The position numbers and the translations under genes are program-made. From positions 1,097,226 to 1,161,225 of the forward strand of contig OZ241322.1 of NCBI GenBank assembly GCA_965199715.1: DNA of 64,000 nt, written 5' to 3'. Below, one piece after another: positions 714 to 22,971 of the stretch. The notes beneath the pieces were generated by a model. That model saw only the letters and a list, made by a program, of their open reading frames with translations. It did not search any database and was not told the DNA's origin. Each line of letters starts with the position of its first letter. Position 1 is the first letter of the stretch. The stretch comes from Vicinamibacteria bacterium. GTDB taxonomy: Bacteria; Acidobacteriota; Vicinamibacteria; Marinacidobacterales; Marinacidobacteraceae.

Positions 714-720
714 GCGGGGG

Positions 721-1113: not shown

Positions 1114-1463
1114 GAGACGCCCTCCAGTCGGACGCGCACGACGCCCGACGAATGCAGGTGCGCCGACGACGGCGAGCGCAGTTTGCTGGCCGGTCAGGCT
1201 CGCCCGCAGGTCGTCGGCGCCGATGCGCGGGCGCCCGGGGCGTTCGGCCGGTCGAATCTGGCTCTCGTAATGGGCGGCCTCGCGACCGCCTTCGAATACC
1301 CGGTAGCGAACCTCCGCGTCACCGGTCGCGACGGCGATGATCGCGACGACGACTTCGGGCCTGGCGCGGAGCGTCGGGCATGGGAATCCGCGGGAGGTTA
1401 TCCGAGAGATCGGACATTTTCCGTCACGCTTTCCAAGAAACGGCTGGTAACCTCGCGCCCCGC

Positions 1464-4448: not shown

Positions 4449-5299
4449 GCAAGACCCCGGACGCCTGGGAGCACGGCGGCAAGCGCCCGAACAACCCCAC
4501 CCAGGAAATCGTGGAGACCGCGAAGCCGCGGCGGAGCCGCCAGCACGCGAAGGACGTCCGGGCGCGCAGCGACGCCGAGCCCACGCTGCGCTGGAAGCGC
4601 TCCCGCGAGACGAAGACCGCGGCCGCGCCGATGCTCATGCGGGCCGAGCAGATCGACCCCGAGGCGTGGGTCACGACCCTGAAGCGGGTGCGCGAGCAGG
4701 GCGACCTGTTCGCCCCGTTCAACGCCTTCCGGGAGCCCGGATCGGCGACGCTCGACTGGTACCAGCACGCCGGCAACTGGTCGAACCGGCTCATCCACGC
4801 CGACGCCCGGCGGGCGATGGCGTCGCTGCTGGAGCACGAGCACGCCGCCGGCTCGGTGCAGATGTGCTTCTTCGATCCGCCCTACGGCATGGACTTCGAC
4901 GCAAGGTTCGGCAACGACACGATCCAGCGGCGGGCGTTCGTGGACACCTACGAGAAGGGCGTCCACTCGTATCTCGACGGAATCCGCGAGACCGCGATCC
5001 TCGCCCGGGAGCTGCTGACCGAATCGGGCAGCCTGTTCATGCAGATCGGCGACGTGAACGTCCACCGCTGCGCGATGGTGCTGGACGAGGTGTTCGGGCC
5101 GGAGAACCGGGTGACGACGATCACGATGGCGACGACCGGCGGCGGCAGCAGCACCAAGTCGATCGCGAAGGCGGGCGACTACCTCCTCTGGTACGCGAAG
5201 GACCGCGAGGAAATGGCCTTCCAGGCGCTCTACGAGGAGCAGGACGTCGAGGCGTGGTGCGATGGCCAGACTTTTGCGGGGGGGGGGGGATTTCCCTGA
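4445..5299 (+). CDS. mod: Type III DNA methyltransferase Mod, N-terminal reading frame (motif IV DPPY); terminated by frameshift at G12 tract
   Basis: NRLIHADARRAMASLL / FFDPPYG / ESGSLFMQIGD / MVLDEVFGPENRVTTI / DYLLWYAKD are collinear with EcoP15I-type Mod N-terminus; TGA at 5297 is 8 nt after G12. Confidence 0.8.
   Translation: MSKTPDAWEHGGKRPNNPTQEIVETAKPRRSRQHAKDVRARSDAEPTLRWKRSRETKTAAAPMLMRAEQIDPEAWVTTLKRVREQGDLFAPFNAFREPGSATLDWYQHAGNWSNRLIHADARRAMASLLEHEHAAGSVQMCFFDPPYGMDFDARFGNDTIQRRAFVDTYEKGVHSYLDGIRETAILARELLTESGSLFMQIGDVNVHRCAMVLDEVFGPENRVTTITMATTGGGSSTKSIAKAGDYLLWYAKDREEMAFQALYEEQDVEAWCDGQTFAGGGGFP
5278..5289 (+). repeat. G12 homopolymeric tract inside mod coding sequence (candidate slipped-strand phase-variation site)
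   Basis: cttttgcGGGGGGGGGGGGatttccc read directly; the two mod reading frames switch exactly here. Confidence 0.9.
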
Positions 5300-7022
5300 T
5301 GGAACGCGTCGAGCGCTGAGGCCCGAGGAGCGGCGAGACCCAAAGCGGAATCTCCCGGAAGGCACTGTCCTTTGGGCGATGCGAACGTTGTTGTCGCAGG
5401 GGCCTTCCAGCGGCGAACAGGGCCAACCGTTCACGTGGAACGGAATTCAGTTCGGCCCGCGAGGACTCGAAAAGGACCAGTGGCGTGTGGATCGCGCCGG
5501 CCTCGAGGCCCTCGCCACTGCAGATCGCTTCTGGACAGCGGTGAAGCCAGGGACCCAGACGGCGCGAGCCGCTCAACTCCAGCTACGGATTCTTAGGTCG
5601 GAAATGGCGGGCCGACGCCTCAACAACGTCTGGGCCCGGCAGATCGCCGCGACCGACAAGCGTTATCCCGTCCAGACGGGGGATCTCGCCATCCAGCGCT
5701 GCATGCTGATGACGACCAAGCCGGGCGACCTCGTGCTCGATCCGACCGGTGGCAGCGGCACGACGGCGGTGGTCGCCGAGGAGTGGGGCCGGCGCTGGAT
5801 CGCGATCGACAGTTCCCGGGAGAGCCTCGCCGTCGCCCGGGAGCGCGTGCTCGTGCGCGAGTACCCGGCGCATCTCCTGATCGGAAGCGCCGCCGGGTTC
5901 GCCCGGGAGAACGCGCTGCGCCACGCCGCGGGTCAGGAGCCGCTCGCCGGGCGGCCCCACGGCTCCCGCGATCCCGCCACCGGGATCGTCGTGGGCCGGA
6001 CGCCCTACGTGAGCGCCGCCACGCTCGCCTACCGGGACCGGCCCGACAAGGCCCGAACGCGCGACGTCACGTGGTTCGCGGACCGTCCCGACGGCGGCAA
6101 GAAGGGCGGCCGGATCGCGAGCCGGTTCACCGTCGAGACCGAGCACCTCGAGCAATACCGCAGCCCCGAGGAGCTTCTCAGCCCCCGCGAGCGGCGTCGG
6201 CAGGCGGACTGGAACGAGCGCGTCCTGCGCATGCTCGGCGACAAGGGCGTCGGCTCGAACGAGGGAACCCGCTGGACGCTCGAGGACATCGAGAACGTCG
6301 CCGACCGGCAACCCGAGAGCCGCCCCGGCGCGATCAGCCACCGCTGCCGTCTGATCGACCACGCCACCGGCGCGGCGAAGGACTGCGTCATCGCCATCTG
6401 GCCGCAGGACGCCAAGGTCGGCGTGGGCAACATCCAGCGCAACGTCCGCGAGGCGATCAGCCAGCACGTCGGCGGCGACGACCTCGCGCTGATCGTCGTG
6501 GGCGCGGAGATCGACGGCGGCTCGCACCAGTCGCTCGACGGCGGCCGGTGGCAAATCCCCGTCGCCCGCATCGAGGCGGGGGCCGAGCTGCATCTGAAGG
6601 AGACCCGGCGCAAGGCCGGCGACTCCGAGTCGGCGCTGCTTCTGGTCGCGGAGCCGGACGTGGAGGTCGAGGACGCCGGCGACGGGAAGCGCCGGGTCGC
6701 CGTCAAGGGCTGGCACCAGTTCAACCCGGTGACCGGCGAGTCGGACTTCTACGCCGCCGACCACATCCGCATGTGGCTGCTGGACACCGACTACAACGGG
6801 ACCGAATTCTGCGCCCGCCGCATCCACCTAAGCGCGAAGCTGCGCGCGAAGGAGAACCGGAAGGTGCTCCAGAGGGTCCTCGGGCGCAAGGGCGACCCGG
6901 ACGCGATCCGCGCGGTGTTCGGCTCCCGCAGCGAACCGTTCCCCGCGCCCGAGCAGGGCGAGATCGCCGTGCGCCTGATCGTCGGGAACGGGAGCGTCCT
7001 GAGCTGGCACGGCCCGGCTTAG
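5289..7022 (+). CDS. mod: Type III Mod continuation in +1 frame (AdoMet motif I and ~400-aa C-terminal extension)
   Basis: PGDLVLDPTGGSGTTAVV = motif I (FxGxG) of beta-class N6A/N4C MTase; frame is restored with mod N-part if G tract is 11 or 14 instead of 12. Confidence 0.75.
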   Translation, partial: DFPDGTRRALRPEERRDPKRNLPEGTVLWAMRTLLSQGPSSGEQGQPFTWNGIQFGPRGLEKDQWRVDRAGLEALATADRFWTAVKPGTQTARAAQLQLRILRSEMAGRRLNNVWARQIAATDKRYPVQTGDLAIQRCMLMTTKPGDLVLDPTGGSGTTAVVAEEWGRRWIAIDSSRESLAVARERVLVREYPAHLLIGSAAGFARENALRHAAGQEPLAGRPHGSRDPATGIVVGRTPYVSAATLAYRDRPDKARTRDVTWFADRPDGGKKGGRIASRFTVETEHLEQYRSPEELLSPRERRRQADWNERVLRMLGDKGVGSNEGTRWTLEDIENVADRQPESRPGAISHRCRLIDHATGAAKDCVIAIWPQDAKVGVGNIQRNVREAISQHVGGDDLALIVVGAEIDGGSHQSLDGGRWQIPVARIEAGAELHLKETRRKAGDSESALLLVAEPDVEVEDAGDGKRRVAVKGWHQFNPVTGESDFYAADHIRMWLLDTDYNGTEFCARRIHLSAKLRAKENRKVLQRVLGRKGDPDAIRAVFGSRSEPFPAPEQGEIAVRLIVGNGSVLSWHGPA

Positions 7023-7057
7023 GGCCGGGAGCCTCGCCGCCCTTCTTCACGCCTACA

Positions 7058-7063
7058 GTTTGA
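7058..7063 (+). promoter_or_regulatory. TTGACA -35-like hexamer upstream of three-gene operon (no convincing -10 found)
   Basis: exact TTGACA in intergenic 7023..7084, rare in this GC-rich background. Confidence 0.2.
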
Positions 7064-7084
7064 CAATCCGGGTAACCTTCCGGT

Positions 7085-7831
7085 GTGGCTGCGACGACGC
7101 GAAGCTTCCAAGGCGGCGCAGTGACGGACCCGGCCCGCCCCGTCGACGACAGCGGCTCTGGATTCGAACTCATTGAGCTGTCAGTGGTTTTCGCAACCAC
7201 GTCGAACAACCCGTCAATCATCAATCCGGATTTTCTCGCTCGCGCCGGAATCGTGGGCGAGGACTCGCCACTTAGCGGTGACCCCATCACTACTCCGGTG
7301 TTCTCACTGGTGAAGTACCAAACAGGCCTCGCCGTGCAAGCCGATCCTGAACGGGTCGTGTTGACGGAATCCCCGAATACTGGGAACCGGGTTGGCGCCC
7401 GGTGCGCACGGATGGCGTCGACATACGCGCAGGCGGTCCCGCACGTGGCGTACCGAGGAATCGGCGTCAATCCGAAGTTCTTTTTCCACCTCGTCCCGAC
7501 AGTTCAGGCGGAGATGGCCCGACTGCTGCATGAGCGCGGCGGTTGGCTGGAGTTCAAGGATTGCGAACCCACGGTGCAGCTCAAGGCGGTTTACGCACTC
7601 GACGCTCGCCAGATCACTGTCGATGCGAGCGCCGCCACAAGACGCTTGGGGCAAGGGGCCGAGCAGCGCGGTTTGCTAGTCCAGTGCAACGTGCACCGGG
7701 AGCTCACCGGTGACGCCGAGGAGCGGGCAGACGCCATGGCAACGATTCTTGAGCGGTGGGAGCGCGACATGAAGGACTGCCGAGAAGTGGCGCGGCGCTT
7801 CGCCGGTCGCCTTCAGCAGGAGGCCCAGTGA
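7085..7831 (+). CDS. hypothetical protein A (no recognisable domain), first gene of coupled A-B-C operon; alternative GTG start near 7121
   Basis: 248-aa ORF in lower-GC island; protein-like composition; stop overlaps B start (GTGA). Confidence 0.5.
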   Translation: MAATTRSFQGGAVTDPARPVDDSGSGFELIELSVVFATTSNNPSIINPDFLARAGIVGEDSPLSGDPITTPVFSLVKYQTGLAVQADPERVVLTESPNTGNRVGARCARMASTYAQAVPHVAYRGIGVNPKFFFHLVPTVQAEMARLLHERGGWLEFKDCEPTVQLKAVYALDARQITVDASAATRRLGQGAEQRGLLVQCNVHRELTGDAEERADAMATILERWERDMKDCREVARRFAGRLQQEAQ

Positions 7832-8601
7832 ACGAGACGCCGCTCCAGTCGCCAACGAAACGCCGACTGGTCGCAACCACGGCTCTCCTGACGGGAGATT
7901 TCGGCGAACGCGCTGACGCGACCAGGCCGCCAAGCTTCCCTGAGGAGGCCTTCTTGGCGGCGGAGGTGCGTGTCCCCTACGTCGTGCGTGCCGACCGAGT
8001 CCTGGTGCGGCGGGGTGGGCAGAATGCGACTTCGAGTATGCATGAGAATTTTTGGGCGGGGCTCGTTTCGTCCGGCAGTGCCGTCGGCGAGTTCGATAGC
8101 CCACTGCGCGAGTTCCACACCAACACCCTGAAGCCGGCGTTGAACGTTCTCACGCTTCTGGCACTCGTCAAGGCAACCCAAGCCGAGCACACCCGCGGCA
8201 TGGCCGGAATGCCGGACGCCACCGCCGCTCCGGACGCGAACGCGGACCTGCGAGCCGCCCTGATCGACCTTGATGAAGCGTCGGACGAGGCGCGAGAGGA
8301 AGGGTTCCCAGCGCTTTCCGAGAGGGCTCTAGGCGACGCCAGACGCCTGCTGAAGGACCTCTACCGTATGCACCCTTGCCGACTTGAGGTCTATCCGACG
8401 CCCGATGCCGAGATCGCTCTCGTGGCGCCCGGCGGGGACGATAGATCCGTGATGGTGTTGTGCGCTTCGGATGGCGGCGCTCTATGCACAGTCAACATTG
8501 ACGGGAGACTCCGATACGCACGGTACCCAAGCGCCGCCAGGCTCCCGGACGGCTTTGTCCGTGAAGGCATGCGGGACTTGGTCCGAGCGAGATCGCATTG
8601 A
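7828..8601 (+). CDS. hypothetical protein B (no recognisable domain)
   Basis: GTG start overlapping A stop; 257 aa; stop overlaps C start (TTGA); track ORF 7756..8601 is the same frame extended upstream. Confidence 0.5.
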   Translation: MNETPLQSPTKRRLVATTALLTGDFGERADATRPPSFPEEAFLAAEVRVPYVVRADRVLVRRGGQNATSSMHENFWAGLVSSGSAVGEFDSPLREFHTNTLKPALNVLTLLALVKATQAEHTRGMAGMPDATAAPDANADLRAALIDLDEASDEAREEGFPALSERALGDARRLLKDLYRMHPCRLEVYPTPDAEIALVAPGGDDRSVMVLCASDGGALCTVNIDGRLRYARYPSAARLPDGFVREGMRDLVRARSH

Positions 8602-9029
8602 CGCAGGCGCCGACGGCGATCCATGCCGCTGAGCAGCTTGGACGCGGGGTTTTCTCCGCCAAGGACGCGAAGCGGGCTGCCCGTTCCAAGATTCCACATC
8701 GGGTGTTCCTTACGAAGCCCGGGGTTGTACGCATTTCAGTAGACAGGCTGAATTTGGCTTCCGCGTCGGAAATCGTCACACTGGCCATCGACCGGGCCGA
8801 GAATCGACCGGGACGATTCCATGGCTGGGCCGTCTTGAGCGTGGACAAGGCGATCCGCAAGGGGCGACGCGTCGAGTCCACACCGGCAGAGGGAAATCCG
8901 CATCACGCCGACATCGTGCTTCCCGATCCCGCACGCGAGGATCGGGACGCTCAGATCGCACACGCGAGGGATATGGCTGACGCATCGAATTGGAAGCCGC
9001 GACCTGAAGCGACTTCAAGAGACTCGTGA
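8598..9029 (+). CDS. hypothetical protein C (143 aa, basic; no recognisable domain); TTG start
   Basis: only in-frame start is TTG overlapping B stop; no ATG in first 100 codons. Confidence 0.4.
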   Translation: MTQAPTAIHAAEQLGRGVFSAKDAKRAARSKIPHRVFLTKPGVVRISVDRLNLASASEIVTLAIDRAENRPGRFHGWAVLSVDKAIRKGRRVESTPAEGNPHHADIVLPDPAREDRDAQIAHARDMADASNWKPRPEATSRDS

Positions 9030-9130
9030 TTCACGCTCGCGAGTGATAGCGGCCACGGCTGTCCTCAAGCGGGCACCGGAAAAGCAGGACCGGGTTCTGC
9101 GCCCGTCGCAAGCGACGACCGACCACGGCG

Positions 9131-9370
9131 TCACGGCCCCTCGTCGCGCTTCTCTCGAAAGAACTCCCCGGCGGGCTGTCCGAGCGAGGGCATCGTGGCC
9201 CGGAAGCGCGCCAGATCTTCAACCGCCACGGGTTTCTTGGGGCGAGCTACGGCGGTGAGTCTCGCCACAGTCTTGCCCCGCCGCGTGATCAGAATGTCCT
9301 CACCGGCCTCAACGCGGTTCACGATCTCGCTGAGACGAGCCCTCGCGGCGGAAACGCTGATGGTCGTCAC
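9131..9370 (-). CDS. Phd/YefM-type (VapB-like) antitoxin paralog 3, no intact downstream toxin
   Basis: MTTISVSAARARLSEIVNRVEAGEDILITRRGK matches Phd/YefM N-terminal fold; 4-nt overlap with PIN C-terminal fragment. Confidence 0.7.
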   Translation of the reverse strand: MTTISVSAARARLSEIVNRVEAGEDILITRRGKTVARLTAVARPKKPVAVEDLARFRATMPSLGQPAGEFFREKRDEGP

Positions 9371-9826
9371 GAGAATGCGTGGCCCTGCCAGCTCATGGCG
9401 ATCGGGCCCGCCGTCGTCGGGAGTTCGAGCATTTCGCCGGCGATGAGCATCCCCTTGTCCAAGGTGTAGATGGCGGCGGCATCGTGATTTCGGGCGATCG
9501 CAAGGTGAAGCGCGTCACCCGCTCGCAGCCCGGTCTCGAAGTACCCGAGCCAACTCGCTGCTAACCGGAAATCGTCCTCCGTCGGGGTCAGTCGAACGAA
9601 GGAGTCCCGAACCATGCCTCGTAGCGGGCGCTTACGGCATGGGCCGCCGGGCCGTCAAGCTGGCCCATGCAACCTCGCGCGCAAACGTAGAGGCAACTTC
9701 AACCCCGGTCCAGTCGCTGACCGCAAGTCCCCCCACGCACGGAGCCGCGAAGAACTCAGCTATCGCGAAGCTGTGGGCTTCGTCCAAGAACAGCGGAACC
9801 AGGAAACTCGTGTCGAAGTAGCGCAT
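9367..9826 (-). pseudogene. vapC: vapC (PIN-domain toxin) disrupted by frameshift into two ORFs (9632..9826 N-part, 9367..9615 C-part)
   Basis: N-part MRYFDTSFLVPLFLDE and C-part GDALHLAIA...IYTLDKG contain all four PIN acidic positions but lie in different frames. Confidence 0.6.
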
Positions 9827-9844
9827 TCGACAGCCCGCGGGACC

Positions 9845-10084
9845 TCACCTTCCCTCGTCGCGCATCTCGCGGATGAGCTCCGCCGACGGTCGGCGCAGGC
9901 GTGGCATCGAAGTCCGAAAGCGCTCCAGTTCCTTGAGCGGCAGCGGTTTCTTGGGACGGAGCACGGCGGTGAGCCGGATTGGCTGCTTGCCCCGGCGAGT
10001 GATGACGACATCCTGCGCGTCCGCAAGCTTGTCCAAGACTTCGTCGAGGCGCACCTTCGCCCGATTGAGACTGATCGTGAACAT
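9845..10084 (-). CDS. Phd/YefM-type antitoxin paralog 2 (cognate of the disrupted vapC)
   Basis: MFTISLNRAKVRLDEVLDKLADAQDVVITRRGK; 18 nt upstream of vapC N-part. Confidence 0.7.
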   Translation of the reverse strand: MFTISLNRAKVRLDEVLDKLADAQDVVITRRGKQPIRLTAVLRPKKPLPLKELERFRTSMPRLRRPSAELIREMRDEGR

Positions 10085-10110
10085 CGGAACCTACCCCCAA
10101 GGGCGAGGAG

Positions 10111-10120
10111 TCTAGCGAGG
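10111..10120 (-). promoter_or_regulatory. second copy of operator-like motif upstream of antitoxin paralog 2
   Basis: TCTAGCGAGG 27-36 nt upstream of start at 10084. Confidence 0.3.
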
Positions 10121-10130
10121 ACGGGGGCGC

Positions 10131-10364
10131 TCAGCTCTCCTCGTCGGACACTTCCGGCTCGCGCTCCCCCGACGGCCGGCGTCGCATCGAGGCCCGGAGC
10201 TTGGCCAGTTCCTCGAGCGGCGGCGGCTCCTTGGGACCGAGCACCGCCTTCACGTGCACGGACTCCTTGCCGCGGCGGGTGATGACCACGTCCTCCCCCT
10301 CGGCGAGCTTGTCGAGAATCTCCTCAGGGCGCGACTTCGCCTTCGTGTACGTGATCGTGAACAT
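10131..10364 (-). CDS. Phd/YefM-type antitoxin paralog 1 (directly followed by paralog 2, no toxin between)
   Basis: MFTITYTKAKSRPEEILDKLAEGEDVVITRRGK; GGGAGG RBS; ~75% nt identity to paralog 2. Confidence 0.7.
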   Translation of the reverse strand: MFTITYTKAKSRPEEILDKLAEGEDVVITRRGKESVHVKAVLGPKEPPPLEELAKLRASMRRRPSGEREPEVSDEES

Positions 10365-10390
10365 CGAGAACCTCCCTACCGCAGAAGGAT

Positions 10391-10400
10391 GCTAGCGAGG
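10391..10400 (-). promoter_or_regulatory. conserved operator-like motif GCTAGCGAGG (minus strand CCTCGCTAGC) 27-36 nt upstream of antitoxin paralog 1
   Basis: same motif (TCTAGCGAGG) at identical spacing upstream of paralog 2; contains palindrome GCTAGC. Confidence 0.3.
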
Positions 10401-10415
10401 GCCGAATGCGCCGGT

Positions 10416-10478
10416 TCACCGCCCCTCGCCCCGGATCTCCCGAAAGAACTCCCCGGCCGACTGCCGGGGTGAGGGCGC
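10416..10478 (-). pseudogene. 3' remnant (~20 codons) of a fourth antitoxin paralog
   Basis: translates to ...PSPRQSAGEFFREIRGEGR*, near-identical to C-terminus of paralog 3 (PSLGQPAGEFFREKRDEGP); no N-terminal part. Confidence 0.45.
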
Positions 10479-10571
10479 TCCGGGTAGTTCCCGAGTTGAC
10501 ATTTTTCAGGGGGGATTTCGGAGCAAGGCAGGGGCGAACCACGACGCCGCCCGGCCGACAGGGAGGCCCCG

Positions 10572-10958
10572 ATGCGAAATCTGGTGATTGCGGTGGCCGG
10601 CGTGGTCGCGGTGGGCGCGCTGGCGCTCGGGCTGGCCCGTTGCGACGCTGGCCCCGCCAACCGGCAGGCGGGTGCGGCGGGCGGCGCCGGCGCGGCCCCT
10701 TCCCGGCCTCCCATCCGTGCGGTGACCCCGGAAGACTTCACCATGGAACGCGTGTCGGAGTGGCTGGCCCGGCTCCATGACGCGGGCATCATTTCGGCTG
10801 AATGCTTGCCGCGTTTCACGCGAATCACGCCGGTGTGCGCGACAACGGGCCGAGGCGGACGATTGGAACGGCGATGTGGTGGCTCGGCGTGGTTGGGTAC
10901 TCCGTCCTCTCCGGACTGCTCGGCATGGACGGCGTGCTCCCCTATGGGCTCGCCTTGA
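10572..10958 (+). CDS. small putative secreted/lipoprotein (signal peptide); C-terminal half of ORF doubtful
   Basis: ATG with GGGAGG RBS 7 nt upstream; hydrophobic N-terminus MRNLVIAVAGVVAVGALALGLARC. Confidence 0.3.
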   Translation: MRNLVIAVAGVVAVGALALGLARCDAGPANRQAGAAGGAGAAPSRPPIRAVTPEDFTMERVSEWLARLHDAGIISAECLPRFTRITPVCATTGRGGRLERRCGGSAWLGTPSSPDCSAWTACSPMGSP

Positions 10959-11068
10959 CGATCGTGGGAATCCTCGTCGTCATCGACTGGGGCGATCTGA
11001 TCCGAAACGTGCGGCGTCGGATTTCTCCGCAGACCGAGTTTCCTGCGGTATGGCGGCGCTCGGGGTGA
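10874..11068 (+). CDS. small putative membrane protein (2 TM)
   Basis: MWWLGVVGYSVLSGLLG...ALTIVGILVVIDWG hydrophobic segments; overlaps previous ORF, only one of the two is likely fully real. Confidence 0.3.
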   Translation: MWWLGVVGYSVLSGLLGMDGVLPYGLALTIVGILVVIDWGDLIRNVRRRISPQTEFPAVWRRSG

Positions 11069-11108
11069 CTCTCGTGGGCGTGCGGCGACCCGAACGCCGC
11101 CCGGGGCA

Positions 11109-11846
11109 CTACGGCGTGACCGTCAGCTCCACGATCCGGTCCTCCCCGAGGAAGCTGTCGTCGTTGTGGAAGTACCAGCGCCGGTTCGCCGGGAGGCGCA
11201 GGCCACCGTCCTCGGCCTCCTCGCTCAGGTGGATGTACTCGCCGTCGTTCGCCGCCTCGTCGTGGTAGAAGCGGTAGCCGATCATCCGGGCGGTCTCGGG
11301 GTGGAAGTAGAAGTACCAGATGTCCCCGCCCTCGTAGTGGACCCGGACCTTCTGCGCGTCCTGCCCGTCGTAGGCCTCCGCGACCGGAGCGTCCGCGATG
11401 ATGGCCCCGGGATCGCGCAGCTTCATGGGAAGCCCGTACAGGTACAGGTAGTAGTTCCGAAGTCGCATCACGGTCGCCTCGTCGATCCCGGCCTCCGCGA
11501 ACGCTTCCTCGGTGAGATCGGCGTTCCCATCGACCGAGCGGGCGACCACCTGCTCGCCCTCGACCTCGATGCGGACGGTTCCGTTCTCGGTCTCGCGGCT
11601 GGCCTCCATGGTCCGCCCGCCGCGCCCGAACCTGAGCGTCGTCACCCGGTCGGTTCCGCCGGGCCGCGACTCCTCAAGGCGGAGCGTGATCTCGGCGCTC
11701 CCCCAGACCCCCTCGGGATCGTGGTGCGCAATCGAACGCTCGATCAGGGCTTCCGCATCCGACATCGCCGGCGGGGGCGGCGCGGCCGGCTCCTCCGGCG
11801 GCGGGGCGCCGCAGGCGAGCGCGGCGAGCAGTGGCAAATAACGCAT
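11109..11846 (-). CDS. hypothetical lipoprotein (245 aa)
   Basis: internal ATG 11846 with GGAGG RBS; signal MRYLPLLAALACG; track ORF 11109..12290 has long N-terminal artefact. Confidence 0.6.
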   Translation of the reverse strand: MRYLPLLAALACGAPPPEEPAAPPPPAMSDAEALIERSIAHHDPEGVWGSAEITLRLEESRPGGTDRVTTLRFGRGGRTMEASRETENGTVRIEVEGEQVVARSVDGNADLTEEAFAEAGIDEATVMRLRNYYLYLYGLPMKLRDPGAIIADAPVAEAYDGQDAQKVRVHYEGGDIWYFYFHPETARMIGYRFYHDEAANDGEYIHLSEEAEDGGLRLPANRRWYFHNDDSFLGEDRIVELTVTP

Positions 11847-11857
11847 GGTGGGCCTCC

Positions 11858-13375
11858 TCAGCCGAACTCGATTCCCTGCGCCAGCGGCAGGTCCTTCGAC
11901 CAGTTGACGGTGTTGGTCTGGCGGCGCATGTACGCCTTCCAGGCGTCGGAGCCGGACTCGCGGCCGCCGCCGGTGTCCTTCTCGCCCCCGAACGCGCCGC
12001 CGATCTCGGCTCCCGACGTGCCGATGTTCACGTTCGCGATGCCGCAGTCGGAGCCCCGGGCCGAAAGGAAGGTCTCGGCCTCGCGCAGGCTGTCGGTGAA
12101 GATCGCCGACGAAAGGCCCTGCGGCACGTCGTTGTGGAGCCGGATCGCGTCTTCCAGCGAGTCGGTCTCCAGCACGTAGAGGATCGGGGCGAAGGTCTCC
12201 TCGCGGACGAGATCGGTCTGCGCCGCCATCCGGACGATCGTCGGCTCCACGTGGTGCGGCCCGACGTCGGGACGCCGCTTCCCGCCGCACACGACGGTTC
12301 CGCCGGACGCCACCGCCCGCTCCACCGCCGCTTCCATGCTCCGCACCGCTTCCTCGGAGACGAGCGGCCCCATGAGCGTGCCCTCCTCAAGCGGATCGCC
12401 GAGCGGCACCTGCGCGTAGGCGTCCTGGAGCCGCTCCACCAGCGGGTCCGCGATCCCGCGCTCGGCGAGGATGCGGCGGGTGGTCGTGCATCGCTGGCCC
12501 GTCGTTCCCACCGAGCCGAAGACGATCGCCCGCACGGCGAGGTCCAGATCGGCGTTCTTGCTGACCACGATCGCGTTGTTGCCGCCGAGCTCGAGCAGGC
12601 AGCGCCCGAGCCGCCCGGCGACCTCGGCGGCGACCTTGCGCCCCACCCGGGTGGACCCGGTGAACGAGATCAGCGGCAGCCGCCGGTCGGAAGCCAGCCG
12701 GGCTCCCAGATCGCCGCCGCCGACGGCGAGGTTGAACACGCCGCTGACCCCGTGGTCGGCCATGACCCGGTTCGCGATCCGCTGGACCGCGACCGAGACC
12801 AACGGCGTCAGCTCGGAAGGTTTCCAGATGACCGGATCCCCGCAGACCGCCGCGATCGCCGCGTTCCACGACCAGACCGCGGTCGGGAAGTTGAACGCGG
12901 TGATGACCCCGATCGGCCCGAGCGGGTGCCACTGCTCGAACATCCGGTGGCCCGGGCGCTCGGAGGCCATCGTGAGCCCGTACAACTGGCGGGAGAGTCC
13001 GACCGCGAAGTCGCAGACGTCGATCATCTCCTGGACCTCGCCGTGGCCCTCGGCGCGGATCTTCCCCATCTCCAGCGAGATCAGGTCGCCGAGCGGCTCC
13101 TTGTCCTCGCGCAGCGCCTCGCCCAGGTCGCGGACCATCTCGCCGCGGCGCGGCGCCGGGATCTCGCGGAAGCTGACGAACGCCTCCCGCGCCGCCTCGA
13201 CGACCGTCTCGAGCGCGGCCGCGTTCGCCGGCTCGACGCTCGCGATGGGCTCGCCGGTGGTCGGATTGCGCGAAACGAGCGGCTCCTCGCCGCTCGGGAT
13301 CCAGGATTCGGGACCATGGCAGGCGCCGGGGACGCCGTCCCCGAGACCGAGCCGATCCATGAGGGCGTCGGACAT
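11858..13375 (-). CDS. aldehyde dehydrogenase, ALDH7/antiquitin type (alpha-aminoadipic/piperideine-6-carboxylate semialdehyde dehydrogenase)
   Basis: ALDH glutamate/cysteine active-site regions (ELGGNNAIVV, GQRCTT) and characteristic C-terminus NWSKDLPLAQGIEF. Confidence 0.8.
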   Translation of the reverse strand: MSDALMDRLGLGDGVPGACHGPESWIPSGEEPLVSRNPTTGEPIASVEPANAAALETVVEAAREAFVSFREIPAPRRGEMVRDLGEALREDKEPLGDLISLEMGKIRAEGHGEVQEMIDVCDFAVGLSRQLYGLTMASERPGHRMFEQWHPLGPIGVITAFNFPTAVWSWNAAIAAVCGDPVIWKPSELTPLVSVAVQRIANRVMADHGVSGVFNLAVGGGDLGARLASDRRLPLISFTGSTRVGRKVAAEVAGRLGRCLLELGGNNAIVVSKNADLDLAVRAIVFGSVGTTGQRCTTTRRILAERGIADPLVERLQDAYAQVPLGDPLEEGTLMGPLVSEEAVRSMEAAVERAVASGGTVVCGGKRRPDVGPHHVEPTIVRMAAQTDLVREETFAPILYVLETDSLEDAIRLHNDVPQGLSSAIFTDSLREAETFLSARGSDCGIANVNIGTSGAEIGGAFGGEKDTGGGRESGSDAWKAYMRRQTNTVNWSKDLPLAQGIEFG

Positions 13376-13413
13376 GGCCGCGAATGTTAGGGGGGCGCGA
13401 TAATCCCGGTCCC

Positions 13414-15678
13414 ATGTCCGGGCGCCTCGGCCTCGTCGCCCTCCTCGCCGCCGTCGGATGCGGCGGGGGGAGCGACCCCATCCGGCCGCTGAACGTGGTC
13501 GTGGTCACGCTGGACACGCTGTCGGCCCGGCACCTGAGTCCCTACGGCGCCGAGCGGATCCGCACGCCGGCGTTCGAGCGGGTCGCCGCCGAGGGCGCGC
13601 TGTTCGAGCAGGCCACCGCGAGCGTGCCGCTCACCCTGCCGTCGCACACCACGATGTTCACCGGCACGCACCCGATGTTCCACGGGGTTCGCGACAACGG
13701 CGGCTACTCGGTTCCCGACTCCGCCGAGACCCTCGCCGAGACGCTCCGGGACGCCGGCTGGCGCACCGGCGGGTTCGTGGGCGCCTTCGTCGTGGACTCG
13801 CGCTGGGGGCTCGACCAGGGGTTCGAGCGCTACTTCGACGACTTCGACTTCGGCGAGTTCGACTCGATCAGCCTCGACGCGGTCCAGCGGCCCGGGGACG
13901 AGGTGCTGGACGCCGCGGTCGAGTGGATGGAGGGCGCGCGCGACCAGCGGTTCTTCGCCTGGATCCACCTCTACGACCCGCACTGGCCCTACGAGCCGCC
14001 CGATCCGTGGCCGTCCCGGGTCGGCGACTACCGGGAGGCGCTGTACGACAGCGAGGTGCTGTTCACCGACTCGCTGGTAGGGCGGGTCCTCGACTGGCTG
14101 GACGAACGCTCGCTCGCCGACGACACGCTCGTCGTGCTCATCGCCGACCACGGCGAGAGCCTCGGGCGCCACCGCGAGACCGGCCACGGGTTCTTCATCT
14201 ACGACGCGGCGATGCAGGTCCCCTTCCTCGTCCGCGCCCCGTACCGGCAGATCGAGGGCGGGCGGCGGATCGGCGCGCAGGTGCGCGGGGTCGATCTCAT
14301 GCCCACGGTGCTCGAACTCGTGGGCGTTCCGGTTCCGGACGCGGTCCAGGGCGAGAGCCTCGTCCCGCTGCTCGACGGATCGGCGGACGACCTCGGCCTG
14401 TGGGCCTACAGCGAGAGCCTCTATCCGCGCAACCACTACGGCTGGGCGCCGCTCCACGGCCTGCGCGACGGCCTGCTGCACTTCATCGCGGCCCCGCGCC
14501 CCGAACTCTACGAGGTCGGGACGGACCCGGAGCAGCAGCGGAACCTCGCCGGCGAGCGTCCCGGGCAGGTGGAGCAGCTCCGGCGGCGGCTCGACGGGAT
14601 GATGGCGGAGTTCTCGACCGGCGCCGCGCCCGAGGCCCGGACCGTCGACGAGGACACGCGCGCCCGGCTCGCCGCGCTCGGCTACCTCGGCGGGACGGCT
14701 CCGGTTCCCGTCCGCGACGAGTCGGACCTCGCCGACCCGAAGGACAAGATCCACCTCTACAACCTGCTCAAGCTCGCCGGAACCGACTCGACCGAGGGGC
14801 GGACCGACCTCGCGATGGAGTCGGTGGAGCGGGTCCTCGCCGAGGATCCGGGGATCCTCGAGGCCCACCTGATCCGGGGGAACCTCCACCGGAAGGCCGG
14901 AGCGTGGGACGCCGCCATCGCGGCGTACCGGGACGCGCTGGCGCTCGACGAGAACTACCGCTCGGCGGTGCTCGGGCTCGCCGACGCCTACCGCCTCGCC
15001 GGCCGTCCGCGCGACGCCGAGGCCGGGTACCGCCGCCTCCTCGAACTGGACCCGAGCGACAACGTCGGCTCGTTCCACCTCGCCGGCGTCCTCGCCGAGC
15101 GCGGCGCCTTCGAGGACGCGCTGGAGGTGCTCGAGGGGCTCGAGGAGCGCGGCGACATCCGGGCGCCGGCCCGCAACCTCAAGGGCGAGTGCCTGCTCAG
15201 CCTCGGCCGGCTCGAAGCGGCCGAGGCCGAGTTCCGGCTCGCGCTGGAGATGGACGAGGATCTCTCGGAGGCCTGGTACAACCTCGCGCTGCTCCACGAG
15301 GAGCGGGGCGAGGGCGACCGGGCGATCCGCGCCTACGAGGCCCGGCTCGCGCTCGCGCCCGGCGACTTCCGCTCGCGCTTCAACCTCGCCCGGCTCCACG
15401 GCGCGATGGGCGACCAGGCCCTCATGGAAGCCGGGTTCCGCGAGGCGATCGCGAGCAACCCGGAATTCGCGGTCGGCCACCTCTATCTCGCGAAGGCGCT
15501 CCTCGACCGGGGCGAGCTCCAGGAAGCCGAGTCCCTCGCGCGGCGCGGCCTCGCGCTCGGGCCGGAGCCGGACATGGCTCCCTTCGGCCACTTCGTCCTC
15601 GCCGACGTCTACAACCGCCTCGGCCGGCCCGCCGACGCCCAGCGGGAACTGCGGCGGGGGCAGGCCCTTCGCCGCTGA
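13414..15678 (+). CDS. sulfatase-like hydrolase/transferase fused to C-terminal TPR repeats; lipoprotein signal
   Basis: N-terminus MSGRLGLVALLAAVGCGG; alkaline-phosphatase-superfamily region TLDTLSARH...LTLPSHTTMFTG; multiple TPR-like repeats in C-terminal 300 aa. Confidence 0.7.
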   Translation: MSGRLGLVALLAAVGCGGGSDPIRPLNVVVVTLDTLSARHLSPYGAERIRTPAFERVAAEGALFEQATASVPLTLPSHTTMFTGTHPMFHGVRDNGGYSVPDSAETLAETLRDAGWRTGGFVGAFVVDSRWGLDQGFERYFDDFDFGEFDSISLDAVQRPGDEVLDAAVEWMEGARDQRFFAWIHLYDPHWPYEPPDPWPSRVGDYREALYDSEVLFTDSLVGRVLDWLDERSLADDTLVVLIADHGESLGRHRETGHGFFIYDAAMQVPFLVRAPYRQIEGGRRIGAQVRGVDLMPTVLELVGVPVPDAVQGESLVPLLDGSADDLGLWAYSESLYPRNHYGWAPLHGLRDGLLHFIAAPRPELYEVGTDPEQQRNLAGERPGQVEQLRRRLDGMMAEFSTGAAPEARTVDEDTRARLAALGYLGGTAPVPVRDESDLADPKDKIHLYNLLKLAGTDSTEGRTDLAMESVERVLAEDPGILEAHLIRGNLHRKAGAWDAAIAAYRDALALDENYRSAVLGLADAYRLAGRPRDAEAGYRRLLELDPSDNVGSFHLAGVLAERGAFEDALEVLEGLEERGDIRAPARNLKGECLLSLGRLEAAEAEFRLALEMDEDLSEAWYNLALLHEERGEGDRAIRAYEARLALAPGDFRSRFNLARLHGAMGDQALMEAGFREAIASNPEFAVGHLYLAKALLDRGELQEAESLARRGLALGPEPDMAPFGHFVLADVYNRLGRPADAQRELRRGQALRR

Positions 15679-15691
15679 CCGGAGACACCCC

Positions 15692-17797
15692 ATGAAGACC
15701 CCGCTTCTCGCCCTTCTCCTCGCCGCCGGGTGCGGCGCCGCCCCCGAACCCATGCCGGAAAACCCCCTTCTCGCCGAGAGCGCCCTGCCCTATCGGCTCC
15801 CCCCCTTCGACCTCATCACGGACGACCACTACCTGCCGGCGTTCGAGGAGGGGATGGCCGAGGAGATCGCGCTCATGGAGCGGATCGCGGCCTCGTCCGA
15901 CGATCCGACGTTCGAGAACACGATCGTCCCGATGGAGACCGGCTCGCCGCTGCTGGCGCGGGTCTCGCGGGTGTTCTTCGGGCTTTCCGGAGCGCACACC
16001 AACGACGCGATGAACGCAATCCGCGAGGAGATCTCGCCGAAGCTGGCCGCCCACGCCGACCGCATCCTCCTGAACCCGGATCTCTTCGCGCGGGTCGAGG
16101 CGATCCACGCGGCGCGGGAGTCCAGCGGGCTCGACGCGGAGCAGATCCGGCTGGTGGAGCGGTACCGCCGCAACTTCATCCGCGCCGGCGCGACGCTGTC
16201 CGAGGAGCAGAAGGAGCGGATGCGCGAGATCAACGCCCGGCTCGCGTCGCTCGGGTCCACGTTCACGCGCAACGTGCTGGACGAGGTGAACGCCGCGGCG
16301 GTCGTGGTCGAGGACGAGTCCGAGCTCGCCGGGCTGGACGAGGGAGCGGTGGCGGCCGCGCGGGAGGCGGCGGCCGCCCGCGGCCTCGACGGCCAATTCG
16401 TGATCCCGCTGCTGAACACGAGCGGCCAGCCGGCGCTCGCGAGCCTGACCGACCGGGCGCTGCGCGAGCGCATCATGCGGGCCTCGCTCGGGCGCGGCGG
16501 CAGCGGCGGCGAACACGACAACACCGAGGTCATCACCGAGATCGCCCGGCTGCGGGCCGAGCGCGCCGCGATGCTCGGCTATCCGCACCATGCGGCGTTC
16601 GTGCTCGAGGAGCAGACCGCGGGCGCGGTGGAGGCGGTGCACGAGCGCCTCTCCGCGCTCACCCCGGTGGCGGTCGAGAACGCCCGGCGCGAGGCCGCCG
16701 AACTGGAGCGCGTGGCCCGGGACGGCGGCGAGGACATCCGGGTCGCCGCGTGGGACTGGCAGATCTACACCGAGAAGCTGCGGGCCGAACTCTTCGACTT
16801 CGACGCCTCGGCGCTGCGCCCGTACTTCGAGCTGAACGGCGTGCTGGAGAAGGGAGTCTTCTTCGCCGCGAACCGGCTCTACGGGATGACGTTCGAGGAG
16901 CGCCCCGAACTTCCGGTCTATCAGGAGGACGTGCGCATCTGGGAGGTCTTCGACCACGACGGCTCGGCGCTCGGGCTGTTCATCGGCGACTTCTACGCCC
17001 GCCCGTCGAAGCGCGGCGGCGCGTGGATGAACGCCTACGTGCCGCAGTCGGGCCTGCTCGGGACGAAACCGGTGGTCGGGAACCACCTGAACGTCCCCGA
17101 GCCGCCCGAGGGCGAGCCGACGCTGCTCACGTTCGACGAGGTCATCACCCTGTTCCACGAGTTCGGGCACGCGATCCACGGGCTGTTCTCGGACGTGCGC
17201 TACCCGACGTTCGCCGGAACTTCGGTCCCCAGGGACTTCGTGGAGTTCCCCTCGCAGGTGAACGAGATGTGGGCGACCTGGCCCGAGGTGCTCCAGAACT
17301 ACGCGGTCCACCACGAGACCGGCGAGCCCATCCCCGCCGACCTGCTGGAGCGGGTGCTGTCCAGCCAGACGTTCAACCAGGGGTTCGCGACGACCGAGTA
17401 TCTGGCGGCGACGCTGCTGGACCTCGCGTGGCACGAACTCCAAGCCGACGAGGTTCCCGAGGCCGGGCGGGCGATCGCCTTCGAGGAGGCCGCGCTCGAA
17501 TCGGCGGGGGTCGCGTTCGCCCCGGTTCCGCCCCGCTACCGGAGCACGTACTTCTCCCACATCTGGGGGAGCGGCTACTCGGCGGGCTACTACTCGTACA
17601 TCTGGAGCGAAGTGCTCGACGCCGACACGGTGGAGTGGTTCCGCGAGAACGGCGGCCTGCTGCGCGAGAACGGCGACCACTTCCGGGCGACGCTGCTGTC
17701 GCGCGGCGGCTCGGTCGAGGCGATGCGGCTCTTCCGCGACTTCCGGGGCCGGGACGCCGAGATCGGCCCGCTGCTGAAGCGCCGCGGGCTGGACTGA
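15692..17797 (+). CDS. dcp: M3-family peptidyl-dipeptidase (Dcp/oligopeptidase A-like), lipoprotein signal
   Basis: HEFGHAIH zinc motif, full-length M3 architecture, N-terminal MKTPLLALLLAAGCG. Confidence 0.8.
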   Translation: MKTPLLALLLAAGCGAAPEPMPENPLLAESALPYRLPPFDLITDDHYLPAFEEGMAEEIALMERIAASSDDPTFENTIVPMETGSPLLARVSRVFFGLSGAHTNDAMNAIREEISPKLAAHADRILLNPDLFARVEAIHAARESSGLDAEQIRLVERYRRNFIRAGATLSEEQKERMREINARLASLGSTFTRNVLDEVNAAAVVVEDESELAGLDEGAVAAAREAAAARGLDGQFVIPLLNTSGQPALASLTDRALRERIMRASLGRGGSGGEHDNTEVITEIARLRAERAAMLGYPHHAAFVLEEQTAGAVEAVHERLSALTPVAVENARREAAELERVARDGGEDIRVAAWDWQIYTEKLRAELFDFDASALRPYFELNGVLEKGVFFAANRLYGMTFEERPELPVYQEDVRIWEVFDHDGSALGLFIGDFYARPSKRGGAWMNAYVPQSGLLGTKPVVGNHLNVPEPPEGEPTLLTFDEVITLFHEFGHAIHGLFSDVRYPTFAGTSVPRDFVEFPSQVNEMWATWPEVLQNYAVHHETGEPIPADLLERVLSSQTFNQGFATTEYLAATLLDLAWHELQADEVPEAGRAIAFEEAALESAGVAFAPVPPRYRSTYFSHIWGSGYSAGYYSYIWSEVLDADTVEWFRENGGLLRENGDHFRATLLSRGGSVEAMRLFRDFRGRDAEIGPLLKRRGLD

Positions 17798-17808
17798 GGG
17801 TTCGGGCC

Positions 17809-20365: not shown

Positions 20366-20375
20366 GGCCCGCCCG

Positions 20376-21437: not shown

Positions 21438-21448
21438 GACGACTGCGA

Positions 21449-22950: not shown

Positions 22951-22971
22951 CGGGCGCGTGCCGCGCTTCGG

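What the first reader, a model, noticed from the sequence alone, without database searches (positions are those of the whole stretch)
9131..10480. Decaying tandem array of Phd/YefM-type antitoxin paralogs with a single, frameshifted PIN (vapC) toxin
Three intact antitoxin paralogs of 77-79 aa (10131-10364, 9845-10084, 9131-9370) share the N-terminal ...ITRRGK core and a Pro-Lys-rich C-terminus. A 3' remnant of a fourth lies at ~10416-10478, ending ...AGEFFREIRGEGR* like paralog 3. Only paralog 2 is followed by a toxin, and that PIN gene is split into two frames (9632-9826 and 9367-9615), though all four catalytic acidic positions are still encoded. Antitoxins outliving or outnumbering toxins may act as anti-addiction or cross-neutralising genes. 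The locus was shaped by tandem duplication and recombination.
Basis: seen in the sequence. Interest (0 to 1): 0.6.

Follow-up and report, generated by a model that had tools for sequence, protein, structure and literature searches.

The report
Eroding toxin-antitoxin locus with spare antitoxins
This is a worn-out bacterial toxin-antitoxin locus: the toxin gene is truly broken, while three diverged copies and one stub of its antitoxin gene survive, which is an unusually tidy example of a known kind of gene decay rather than a new system.

Summary
Three intact Phd/YefM antitoxin genes sit in tandem on the minus strand: A1 10131-10364, A2 9845-10084, A3 9131-9370. There is also a 61-nt 3' stub of a fourth, A3-like copy (10416-10476). 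One PIN/VapC gene (9367-9826) follows A2 after the 18-nt spacer that is typical of the family.

One correction: the PIN gene lies in three frames, not two. Two 1-nt deletions (9670/9671 and 9615/9616) break it. Repairing both gives a 153-aa VapC that aligns without gaps to 148-149 aa homologues and keeps D5, E43, D105 and D124.

Six independent assemblies of a 99.8%-identical strain share the first frameshift but not the second. The toxin is therefore a real pseudogene, and the window carries one further lesion. A1 is eroding too: it has two Leu-to-Pro changes and a degenerate toxin-binding tail.

The copies arose by old local duplication. The evidence is a 280-nt period and shared residues that are rare or absent elsewhere in the family.

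Across 78 related genome loci, 22 keep the antitoxin with a broken or missing toxin. None has tandem antitoxins of this family.

The array sits in a 10.4-kb low-GC island, probably in an Acidobacteriota genome. The two nearest relatives lack the array. An anti-addiction role is untested. This is ordinary toxin-antitoxin erosion in an uncommon layout.

The parts
10391..10476 (-). Stub (R) of a fourth, A3-like antitoxin. It comprises the last 20 codons (10476-10419), the stop codon (10418-10416) and about 25 nt downstream.
   Evidence: Aligns with A3 9191-9108 at z = 21.9. 80% identity over 61 nt (D3). The GEFF motif is shared only with A3 (0 of 117 relatives).
10387..10400 (-). Conserved element upstream of A1 (CCTCGCTAGCATCC). 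It is a possible -10 region (TAGCAT).
   Evidence: Repeats at a 280-nt period with 10107-10120 (D7; p about 0.016). It lies in the same position as GCTATCAT / TTACACT upstream of homologous antitoxins. Promoter function is inferred; the sigma-70 scan found nothing.
10131..10364 (-). A1, a 77-aa Phd/YefM paralogue. The ORF is intact but the C-terminal toxin-binding tail is degenerate (RRPSGEREPEVSDEES).
   Evidence: PF02604 36.0 bits. Family HMM 75 bits against 143-164 for members. L13P and L48P relative to the sister strain. C-terminal dN/dS against A2 is 0.86.
10107..10120 (-). Conserved element upstream of A2 (CCTCGCTAGACTCC).
9845..10084 (-). A2, a 79-aa Phd/YefM antitoxin. It is the copy in the canonical position, and its C-terminal tail is close to the family consensus.
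   Evidence: PF02604 32.6 bits. Up to 66% identity to family members. 18-nt spacer to the PIN start, as in intact modules. Identical in all seven assemblies.
9367..9826 (-). vapC (PIN) pseudogene in three frames: 9826-9671, 9670-9616 and 9615-9367. The 1-nt deletions lie at 9670/9671 and 9615/9616.
   Evidence: Three-frame translation. Gap-free alignment of the repaired protein to 12 homologues at 56-62% identity. 1762 homologues at E<=1e-3. PF01850 45.2 bits after repair. Deletion 1 is shared by six other assemblies and deletion 2 is not.
9131..9370 (-). A3, a 79-aa Phd/YefM paralogue. Its GTG start overlaps the PIN stop (GTGA). Its C-terminal tail is altered (…GEFFREKRDEGP).
   Evidence: PF02604 48.7 bits. 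dN/dS against A2 is 0.32. No toxin remnant downstream.
9105..9130 (-). Sequence downstream of A3 that resembles the junction between the stub and A1 (TCGGTCGTCGCTTGC against TCGGCCCTCGCTAGC).
   Evidence: It forms the tail of the 86-nt stub/A3 alignment. It is not significant on its own (p = 0.15), so this is only suggestive.

Best explanation
This is an eroding chromosomal type II toxin-antitoxin locus of the Phd/YefM-antitoxin plus PIN/VapC-toxin kind, lying in a 10.4-kb horizontally acquired island.

How an intact module works is taken from established knowledge of VapBC and Phd-type systems. The VapC PIN domain is a Mg2+-dependent RNase. The antitoxin's N-terminal domain dimerises and represses the promoter. 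Its C-terminal tail covers the toxin's active site.

Here, an ancestral promoter-antitoxin-toxin module underwent old local duplications of the antitoxin segment with a unit of about 280 nt. This produced the order stub, A1, A2, vapC, A3. The toxin was later inactivated by a 1-nt deletion in codon 53, which is fixed in all sampled strains. In the window's strain a second 1-nt deletion followed 54 nt downstream.

Neither toxin fragment carries all four catalytic acidic residues, so no active toxin is made. With the toxin gone, the antitoxins are no longer needed for survival. A1 is already degrading, while A2 and A3 are still intact.

Shown here: the anatomy, the family membership, the reality of frameshift 1, the paralogy of the copies, and the recurrence of toxin loss in this family. 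Inferred: the order of events, loss of toxin activity, and the lack of a present function for the antitoxins.
For: Family and anatomy.

The canonical module of 79-aa antitoxin, 18-nt spacer and 148-149 aa PIN is seen in homologues.

Frameshift 1 is present in six independent assemblies. Frameshift 2 is unique to the window and is the only indel in 17.6 kb.

The PIN deviates at T18H, R41G, F69Y, G116D and G135E, positions where the 12 aligned homologues all agree. It scores 209 bits on a family HMM, against 240-290 for members.

A1 erosion.

Local duplication: repeats D1, D2, D3 and D7 with 280-286-nt spacing, shared derived residues, and the stub matching A3.

Toxin-first loss is common in this family. 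Of 78 assessable GTDB loci, 56 are intact, 14 have a broken PIN and 8 have no PIN. The affected loci include short-read assemblies.

Island context: GC of 0.62-0.67 against 0.70-0.74 in the flanks. The island lies between DUF4340 (3-713) and DUF6503 (11109-11840). Relatives with 86-87% identical AldDH hold only 1.8-2.4 kb there and have no orthologous array.

The literature reports frequent chromosomal TA pseudogenisation, mostly through truncated toxins, and abundant orphan antitoxins (PMC13617665, PMC7192599).
Against: A2 and A3 remain full-length, and pairwise dN/dS is 0.32. They were therefore under purifying selection for most of their divergence and may still be.

The paralogues are far older than the toxin's lesions. 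Several antitoxins thus coexisted with a live toxin for a long time, which simple decay does not explain.

Each of A2 and A3 is closer to foreign homologues (66% and 61%) than they are to each other (51%). Part of the array could therefore come from separate acquisitions.

The dN/dS values rest on genes of fewer than 80 codons, with saturated dS and strong GC3 bias.

No expression or activity data exist.
Confidence: 0.78

Rival explanations
1. The array is a maintained immunity (anti-addiction) battery. Three antitoxin paralogues with diversified C-terminal toxin-binding tails would be kept by selection. They would neutralise VapC toxins of this family arriving on mobile DNA from co-resident symbionts. 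The resident toxin would have been discarded as a liability.
For: A2 and A3 are intact with dN/dS of 0.32. The tails differ among copies: ELIRE, EFFRE and EREPE, against the family consensus ELLRE. The family is highly conserved (79% mean column identity) across hosts labelled Alphaproteobacteria, Gammaproteobacteria, Acidobacteriota, Chloroflexi and others, which implies lateral spread. Many host names point to sponge symbionts; that reading is my own knowledge. Distant relatives occur on 57 plasmids. Orphan antitoxins have been proposed as anti-addiction modules (PMC7192599, PMC7354431), and toxin-antitoxin genes are enriched in sponge symbionts (PMC8163846).
Against: A1's tail has lost the conserved L70, L71 and R72, and A1 is gaining Leu-to-Pro changes. 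None of 92 related loci shows such an array. In this family, antitoxins next to dead or absent toxins score slightly lower than paired ones (median 146-147 against 154, p = 0.001), which suggests decay rather than maintenance. There are no close homologues on plasmids (all below 60% identity) and none in phages. No functional data exist.
Confidence: 0.14
2. The array was built by separate insertions of three or four related modules into one hotspot, each later losing its toxin. It would not come from local duplication.
For: A2 and A3 are closer to foreign homologues than to each other. The site is a variable hotspot that carries a different Phd gene plus a PIN fragment in relatives. [quoted passage not shown]
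Against: A1 and A2 share F2, L20 and A21, each seen in 0 of 117 relatives. All three copies share I4 (7 of 117). A2 and A3 share T39 (2 of 117). A1 and A3 share I16 (4 of 117). The period is a regular 280-286 nt and includes the upstream element. The stub and A3 share a motif unique to them. No toxin remnants lie between the copies.
Confidence: 0.06
3. The frameshifts are assembly errors, or are bypassed by ribosomal frameshifting or by reassembly of the fragments. The locus would then still make active VapC.
For: The second deletion (C missing from GGCCATGG) is seen only in this assembly. A G12 tract elsewhere in the window (5278-5289) coincides with another frame change, so homopolymer length errors cannot be excluded for this assembly.
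Against: Frameshift 1 is identical in seven assemblies from different read sets and is not in a homopolymer. The site GAGGTTGCA is not a slippery heptamer; this comes from the sequence and my own knowledge. Each fragment holds only two of the four catalytic acidic residues.
Confidence: 0.02

Closest known systems
VapBC type II toxin-antitoxin modules with a Phd/YefM-type VapB. Examples are M. tuberculosis VapB46 (6jqy) and VapBC-5 (3dbo), and the PGAP names 'VapC family toxin' with 'prevent-host-death family antitoxin'.
   Same: The gene order is antitoxin then PIN toxin. The domain families are PF02604 and PF01850. The spacer is short and the four acidic PIN residues are present. The N-terminal domain of the antitoxin profile hits Phd, VapB46 and 3dbo chain A. 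Identifying 3dbo as VapBC-5 is from my own knowledge. Plasmid homologues carry these PGAP annotations.
   Different: The toxin ORF is broken by 1-nt deletions: one in all seven assemblies and a second in this window. There are two extra full-length antitoxin paralogues and one stub. One paralogue lies downstream of the toxin with an overlapping start. The PIN family has no close solved structure.
Phd-Doc of phage P1
   Same: The antitoxin N-terminal domain belongs to the same family. The profile hits Phd chains (3hs2, 3hry) at E about 2e-9.
   Different: The partner toxin is a PIN RNase, not a Doc/Fic kinase. The C-terminal tail is unrelated.
Orphan antitoxins and the anti-addiction model. Examples are the 2253 orphan antitoxins in Klebsiella (PMC7192599) and the chromosomal CcdA of Erwinia chrysanthemi neutralising the F-plasmid CcdB (reviewed in PMC7354431).
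   Same: Intact antitoxin genes have no working cognate toxin, and they sit in the context of a degraded pair.
   Different: Several paralogues are arrayed in tandem at a single locus. No neutralisation of any foreign toxin has been shown.
Eroded chromosomal toxin-antitoxin systems (Photorhabdus survey, PMC13617665)
   Same: Toxin-antitoxin systems lie in small variable genomic spots. Pseudogenisation is frequent and mostly affects the toxin ORF.
   Different: The phylum differs (probably Acidobacteriota). Here the lesions are frameshifts, and antitoxin copies have multiplied.
Tandem VapB duplicates upstream of a PIN gene in metagenome contigs L101 and L103
   Same: Two Phd-type antitoxin genes lie head to tail at about a 250-nt period, followed by a PIN gene.
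   Different: They belong to a different subfamily. The copies are nearly identical, so the duplication is recent. The toxin ORF is intact.

Membership tests
Phd/YefM antitoxin family (PF02604 / TIGR01552) | Sequence match at or above the curated cut-off | tested here: met
   A1 36.0, A2 32.6 and A3 48.7 bits against a cut-off of 29.8. TIGR01552 gives 27.8, 21.5 and 41.0 bits against a cut-off of 20.8. The 28-aa stub has no hit.
Phd/YefM antitoxin family (PF02604 / TIGR01552) | Gene lies immediately upstream of its toxin gene in one operon | tested here: inconclusive
   This is met for A2 only, with an 18-nt spacer as in 56 of 78 related loci. A1 is followed by A2. A3 lies downstream of the toxin with a 4-nt overlap.
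Phd/YefM antitoxin family (PF02604 / TIGR01552) | Binds and neutralises the toxin through its C-terminal segment, and represses its own promoter | not testable with these tools
   Only conservation of the tail could be compared. A2 is near the consensus, A3 is altered (FF in place of LL), and A1 is degenerate.
VapC / PIN-domain toxin (PF01850) | PIN domain match at or above the cut-off | tested here: met
   The fragments score 16.8 and 24.6 bits. The protein repaired at both deletions scores 45.2 bits against a cut-off of 23.6, in one stretch covering profile positions 2-114.
VapC / PIN-domain toxin (PF01850) | Four conserved acidic active-site residues | tested here: met
   D5, E43, D105 and D124 lie in invariant columns of the 13-sequence alignment.
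VapC / PIN-domain toxin (PF01850) | Uninterrupted ORF encoding the whole domain | tested here: not met
   There are two 1-nt deletions in the window and one in each of six sister assemblies.
Functional type II toxin-antitoxin module | An active toxin and a cognate antitoxin are both encoded | tested here: not met
   The toxin ORF is broken in all seven assemblies. Activity itself was not testable.
Anti-addiction / cross-neutralising orphan antitoxin | Intact antitoxin without a functional cognate toxin | tested here: met
   A1, A2 and A3 are intact ORFs and the only PIN gene is a pseudogene.
Anti-addiction / cross-neutralising orphan antitoxin | Homologous toxins circulate on mobile elements that reach this host | tested here: inconclusive
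   The family is spread across several phyla, largely in MAGs whose names point to sponge symbionts (my own knowledge), at 79% mean column identity. Plasmid homologues are only about 38% identical. There are none in phages or viral contigs.
Anti-addiction / cross-neutralising orphan antitoxin | The antitoxin neutralises a non-cognate incoming toxin | not testable with these tools
   This requires kill/rescue assays.

The most novel reading that the evidence does not exclude
The three paralogues are a selected 'antitoxin battery'. Their toxin-binding tails would have diversified (ELIRE, EFFRE, EREPE) to protect the host against different variants of one VapC family that spreads laterally among members of its microbial community (sponge symbionts, judging from the MAG names). 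The resident toxin would have been discarded afterwards. The array predates the toxin's death by a long time (paralogue dS of 0.6 to above 1.2, against one or two recent indels). This fits a function for spare antitoxins while the toxin was still alive.
Probability: 0.12. Interest if true: 0.5.

Novelty: new member of a known kind. Interest (0 to 1): 0.25.

Why it matters
The locus is a clean, well-documented snapshot of how chromosomal toxin-antitoxin loci erode. The toxin dies first: one frameshift is fixed and a second is strain-specific. The antitoxins then lose constraint one by one. It also shows that in this uncharacterised VapBC subfamily about 28% of genomic loci (22 of 78) already lack a working toxin.

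The ancestral toxin can be rebuilt by adding two bases, and three natural antitoxin variants sit beside it. The locus would therefore make a convenient test set for antitoxin specificity and for the untested anti-addiction hypothesis.

It does not reveal a new mechanism.

Tried and rejected
- Exact-sequence contig look-ups for A3 and A1 found nothing. The sister strain differs by 1-2 residues and the source contig is not indexed for these genes. Look-ups with A2 and AldDH succeeded.
- Cluster look-up gave no names or accessions.
- The genome-contig scan did not return the source genome, so it is apparently not a species representative there.
- I suspected that the region upstream of A3 (the PIN 3' end) was a former promoter homologous to the regions upstream of A1 and A2. 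This was rejected, with shuffle fractions of 0.52 and 0.998.
- Similarity between the A3 downstream sequence and the A1 upstream sequence is not significant on its own (p = 0.15).
- No PIN remnants were found downstream of A1 or A3 at E<=1.
- The sigma-70 scan found no promoters. The two terminator-like hits lie inside coding sequence and are at chance level.
- No Rfam family matched in 7000-12000. No tRNA was found in 1-25000. No flanking att-like repeats were found.
- PDB sequence searches for the PIN gave no hit with the single sequence. The profile gave only PAE2754 at E = 0.049.
- YN00 dN/dS failed numerically, so only NG86 values are reported.
- The first metagenome pattern for tandem ITRRGK motifs found nothing. 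A looser pattern gave 4 hits, of which 2 were real.
Full report
OBSERVATION

On the minus strand between 9131 and 10476 the window carries three complete small ORFs. They are A1 (10131-10364, 77 aa), A2 (9845-10084, 79 aa) and A3 (9131-9370, 79 aa).
- All three exceed the Pfam gathering score for PF02604 (Phd/YefM antitoxin) and the NCBIfam cut-off for TIGR01552.
- They are 42-54% identical to one another in global alignment.
- Upstream of A1 lies a 3' stub of a fourth copy. Window 10476-10391 aligns with the last 20 codons of A3 plus about 25 nt beyond the stop. The score is 42, against 9.9 +/- 1.5 for shuffles (z = 21.9).
- The repeat finder independently reports 80% identity over 61 nt for this pair.
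- The motif GEFF, shared by the stub and A3, is absent from all 117 other family members retrieved.

THE TOXIN

A2 is followed after 18 nt by a PIN-domain gene.
- Codons 1-52 run from 9826 to 9671.
- The segment RMGQLDGPAAHAVSARYEA lies in a second frame, 9670-9616.
- The remainder runs from 9615 to 9367 in a third frame.

A protein stitched across the three frames found 1762 homologues at E<=1e-3. The best are 148-149 aa, up to 64% identical and cover 92% of the query. It aligns to twelve of them without any gap. Both breaks are 1-nt deletions: one in the Arg53 codon (GTT_GC ATG, 9670/9671) and one in the Ala71 codon (GC_ ATG, 9615/9616). Inserting one base at each site restores a 153-codon ORF. 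That ORF scores 45.2 bits on PF01850, against a cut-off of 23.6. The acidic residues D5, E43, D105 and D124 sit in invariant columns.

IS THE FRAMESHIFT REAL?

The flanking aldehyde dehydrogenase and A2 were used to recover other assemblies. Six contigs came from six different sequencing runs (SRR33960549-54), and they are 99.8% identical to the window.
- Over 17.6 kb there are 31 substitutions and a single indel.
- That indel is exactly the second PIN deletion. The other strains read GAGGCCATGG where the window reads GAGGCATGG.
- All six share the first deletion.

Frameshift 1 is therefore genuine and fixed. Frameshift 2 is either a further real lesion in the window's strain or a consensus error. 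In both cases the toxin ORF is broken, and each fragment carries only two of the four catalytic residues.

The PIN also deviates at five positions where the 12 aligned homologues all agree: T18H, R41G, F69Y, G116D and G135E.

WHAT THE INTACT SYSTEM LOOKS LIKE

In homologous loci the module is a 79-aa Phd-type antitoxin, an 18-nt spacer and a 148-149 aa PIN protein. Sources name these proteins 'VapC family toxin' and 'prevent-host-death family antitoxin'.

The N-terminal half of the antitoxin profile matches the solved structures of Phd, VapB46 and 3dbo chain A. The PIN has no close solved relative.

The family is strikingly conserved, with 79% mean column identity. Its hosts are labelled Alphaproteobacteria, Gammaproteobacteria, Acidobacteriota, Chloroflexi and others. 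Many of the MAG names point to sponge symbionts; that reading rests on my own knowledge. Toxin-antitoxin genes are reported to be enriched in sponge symbionts (PMC8163846).

HOW THE ARRAY AROSE

A1 and A2 repeat with a 280-nt period, at 71% identity over 192 nt. The four 3' ends repeat at spacings of 714, 286 and 285 nt. A 14-15-nt upstream element (CCTCGCTAG..TCC) repeats in register.

Rare residues are shared among the copies:
- A1 and A2 share F2, L20 and A21, each seen in 0 of 117 relatives.
- All three copies share I4 (7 of 117).
- A2 and A3 share T39 (2 of 117) and R37 (7 of 117).
- A1 and A3 share I16 (4 of 117) and G68 (7 of 117).

These shared rare states argue for local paralogy. This holds even though A2 and A3 are each closer overall to foreign homologues (66% and 61%) than to each other (51%). 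All window copies are fast-evolving outliers on a family HMM: A1 75, A2 116 and A3 114 bits, against 143-164 for members.

Rough NG86 estimates give dS of about 0.6 for A1-A2 and at least 1.2 for A3 against either. The duplications are therefore old, and A3 and the stub belong to an earlier split.

dN/dS is 0.32 for A2-A3, which indicates constraint. It is 0.53 for A1-A2 overall, and 0.86 in the C-terminal toxin-binding half.

A1's tail (RRPSGEREPEVSDEES) has lost the conserved L70, L71 and R72. Relative to the sister strain, the window's A1 has two further changes away from the family consensus, L13P and L48P. A1 is thus eroding, while A2 and A3 are still intact.

HOW COMMON THIS IS

I screened 80 loci from species-representative genomes with family HMMs, and 78 were assessable.
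- 56 carry an intact pair.
- 14 carry a full-length antitoxin with a broken PIN.
- 8 carry an antitoxin with no detectable PIN.

The affected loci include short-read assemblies. Antitoxins next to dead or absent toxins score slightly lower than paired ones (median 146-147 against 154, Mann-Whitney p = 0.001).

None of these loci, nor 12 further metagenomic loci, has a second antitoxin of the same family. The tandem layout is therefore unusual for this family.

A DNA pattern scan of metagenomes for two ITRRGK motifs about 280 nt apart found only two genuine cases. Both belong to another VapB subfamily and have near-identical copies and an intact PIN.

The literature already describes abundant orphan antitoxins and frequent erosion of chromosomal toxin-antitoxin systems, mostly through the toxin (PMC7192599, PMC13617665). 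The anti-addiction hypothesis is also established (PMC7354431).

CONTEXT

The array lies in a low-GC stretch (0.62-0.67 against 0.70-0.74 in the flanks). It is bounded by a DUF4340 gene (3-713) and a DUF6503 gene (11109-11840). The island also holds:
- a ResIII helicase-like gene;
- a Type III-like DNA methyltransferase that changes frame at a G12 tract;
- three overlapping genes of unknown function.

The best named hit for the neighbouring aldehyde dehydrogenase is an Acidobacteriota MAG at 85% identity. Two relatives at 86-87% identity have the same flanking genes but only 1.8-2.4 kb between them. One (L093) holds a different Phd gene, and both hold a 92-aa C-terminal PIN fragment. Neither has this array. 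The site is thus a hotspot where toxin-antitoxin modules arrive and decay.

VERDICT

The best explanation is ordinary erosion of a duplicated Phd/YefM-VapC locus (confidence about 0.78).

A maintained anti-addiction role for the spare antitoxins cannot be excluded (about 0.12-0.14) and would need kill/rescue assays.

Novelty is low: this is a new member of a known kind, in an uncommon tandem layout.

Noticed in passing
window 5278-5289 (within 4202-7022, + strand): A G12 homopolymer sits exactly where a Type III-like DNA methyltransferase (PF01555; PADLOC MTase_III) switches frame. The two ORFs are 4202-5299 and 5115-7022. G11 or G14 would restore one ORF. This is either a phase-variable mod gene in the OFF state or a homopolymer length error. 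A ResIII helicase-like gene (1341-4448) lies upstream.
   Followed up: partly
window 8598-9029 (+ strand): This 143-aa ORF is convergent with A3, and its TTG start overlaps the stop of the upstream ORF. It belongs to a conserved family with no Pfam, NCBIfam or PADLOC model. The family has 493 representative clusters at E<=1e-3 and motifs E..LGR.VFS, ISVDRL, F.GWA and NPYHADI.LP. The AlphaFold model is confident (pLDDT 94.4). It has no PDB Foldseek match at E<=1e-3, and one unnamed viral protein matches at E = 1.1e-3. It may be an uncharacterised fold or enzyme in a defence-island setting.
   Followed up: partly
window 7085-8601 (+ strand): Two further overlapping ORFs (248 and 281 aa) lie between the methyltransferase and the 143-aa gene. 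They have no Pfam or PADLOC hit. By eye, the C-terminal part of the 281-aa ORF resembles a 132-aa gene at the same hotspot in relative L094.
   Followed up: partly
window 714-11108; L093 12275-14041; L094 12275-14660: There is a variable hotspot between the DUF4340 and DUF6503 genes. It holds 10.4 kb of low-GC island in the window and only 1.8-2.4 kb in two relatives. One relative (L093) carries a different Phd gene, and both carry a 92-aa C-terminal PIN fragment, so toxin-antitoxin decay recurs at this site.
   Followed up: partly
window 5751-23375 compared with L095: Substitutions between the window and the sister strain are about four times denser in the island than in the flanking core genes. 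There are 19 in 5751-10800 and 12 in 10800-23375.
   Followed up: no
loci L013-L092 (genome-contig scan): In this VapBC subfamily, 22 of 78 assessable genome loci keep a full-length antitoxin with a broken or absent PIN toxin. Judging from the MAG names, the family is concentrated in sponge-symbiont MAGs of several phyla.
   Followed up: yes
L101 1415-1949 and L103 2578-3106: These metagenome contigs carry two near-identical Phd-type VapB genes in tandem. In L101 an intact PIN gene follows them (1032-1490, minus strand); L103 was not examined for one. This is a recent antitoxin duplication in another subfamily.
   Followed up: partly
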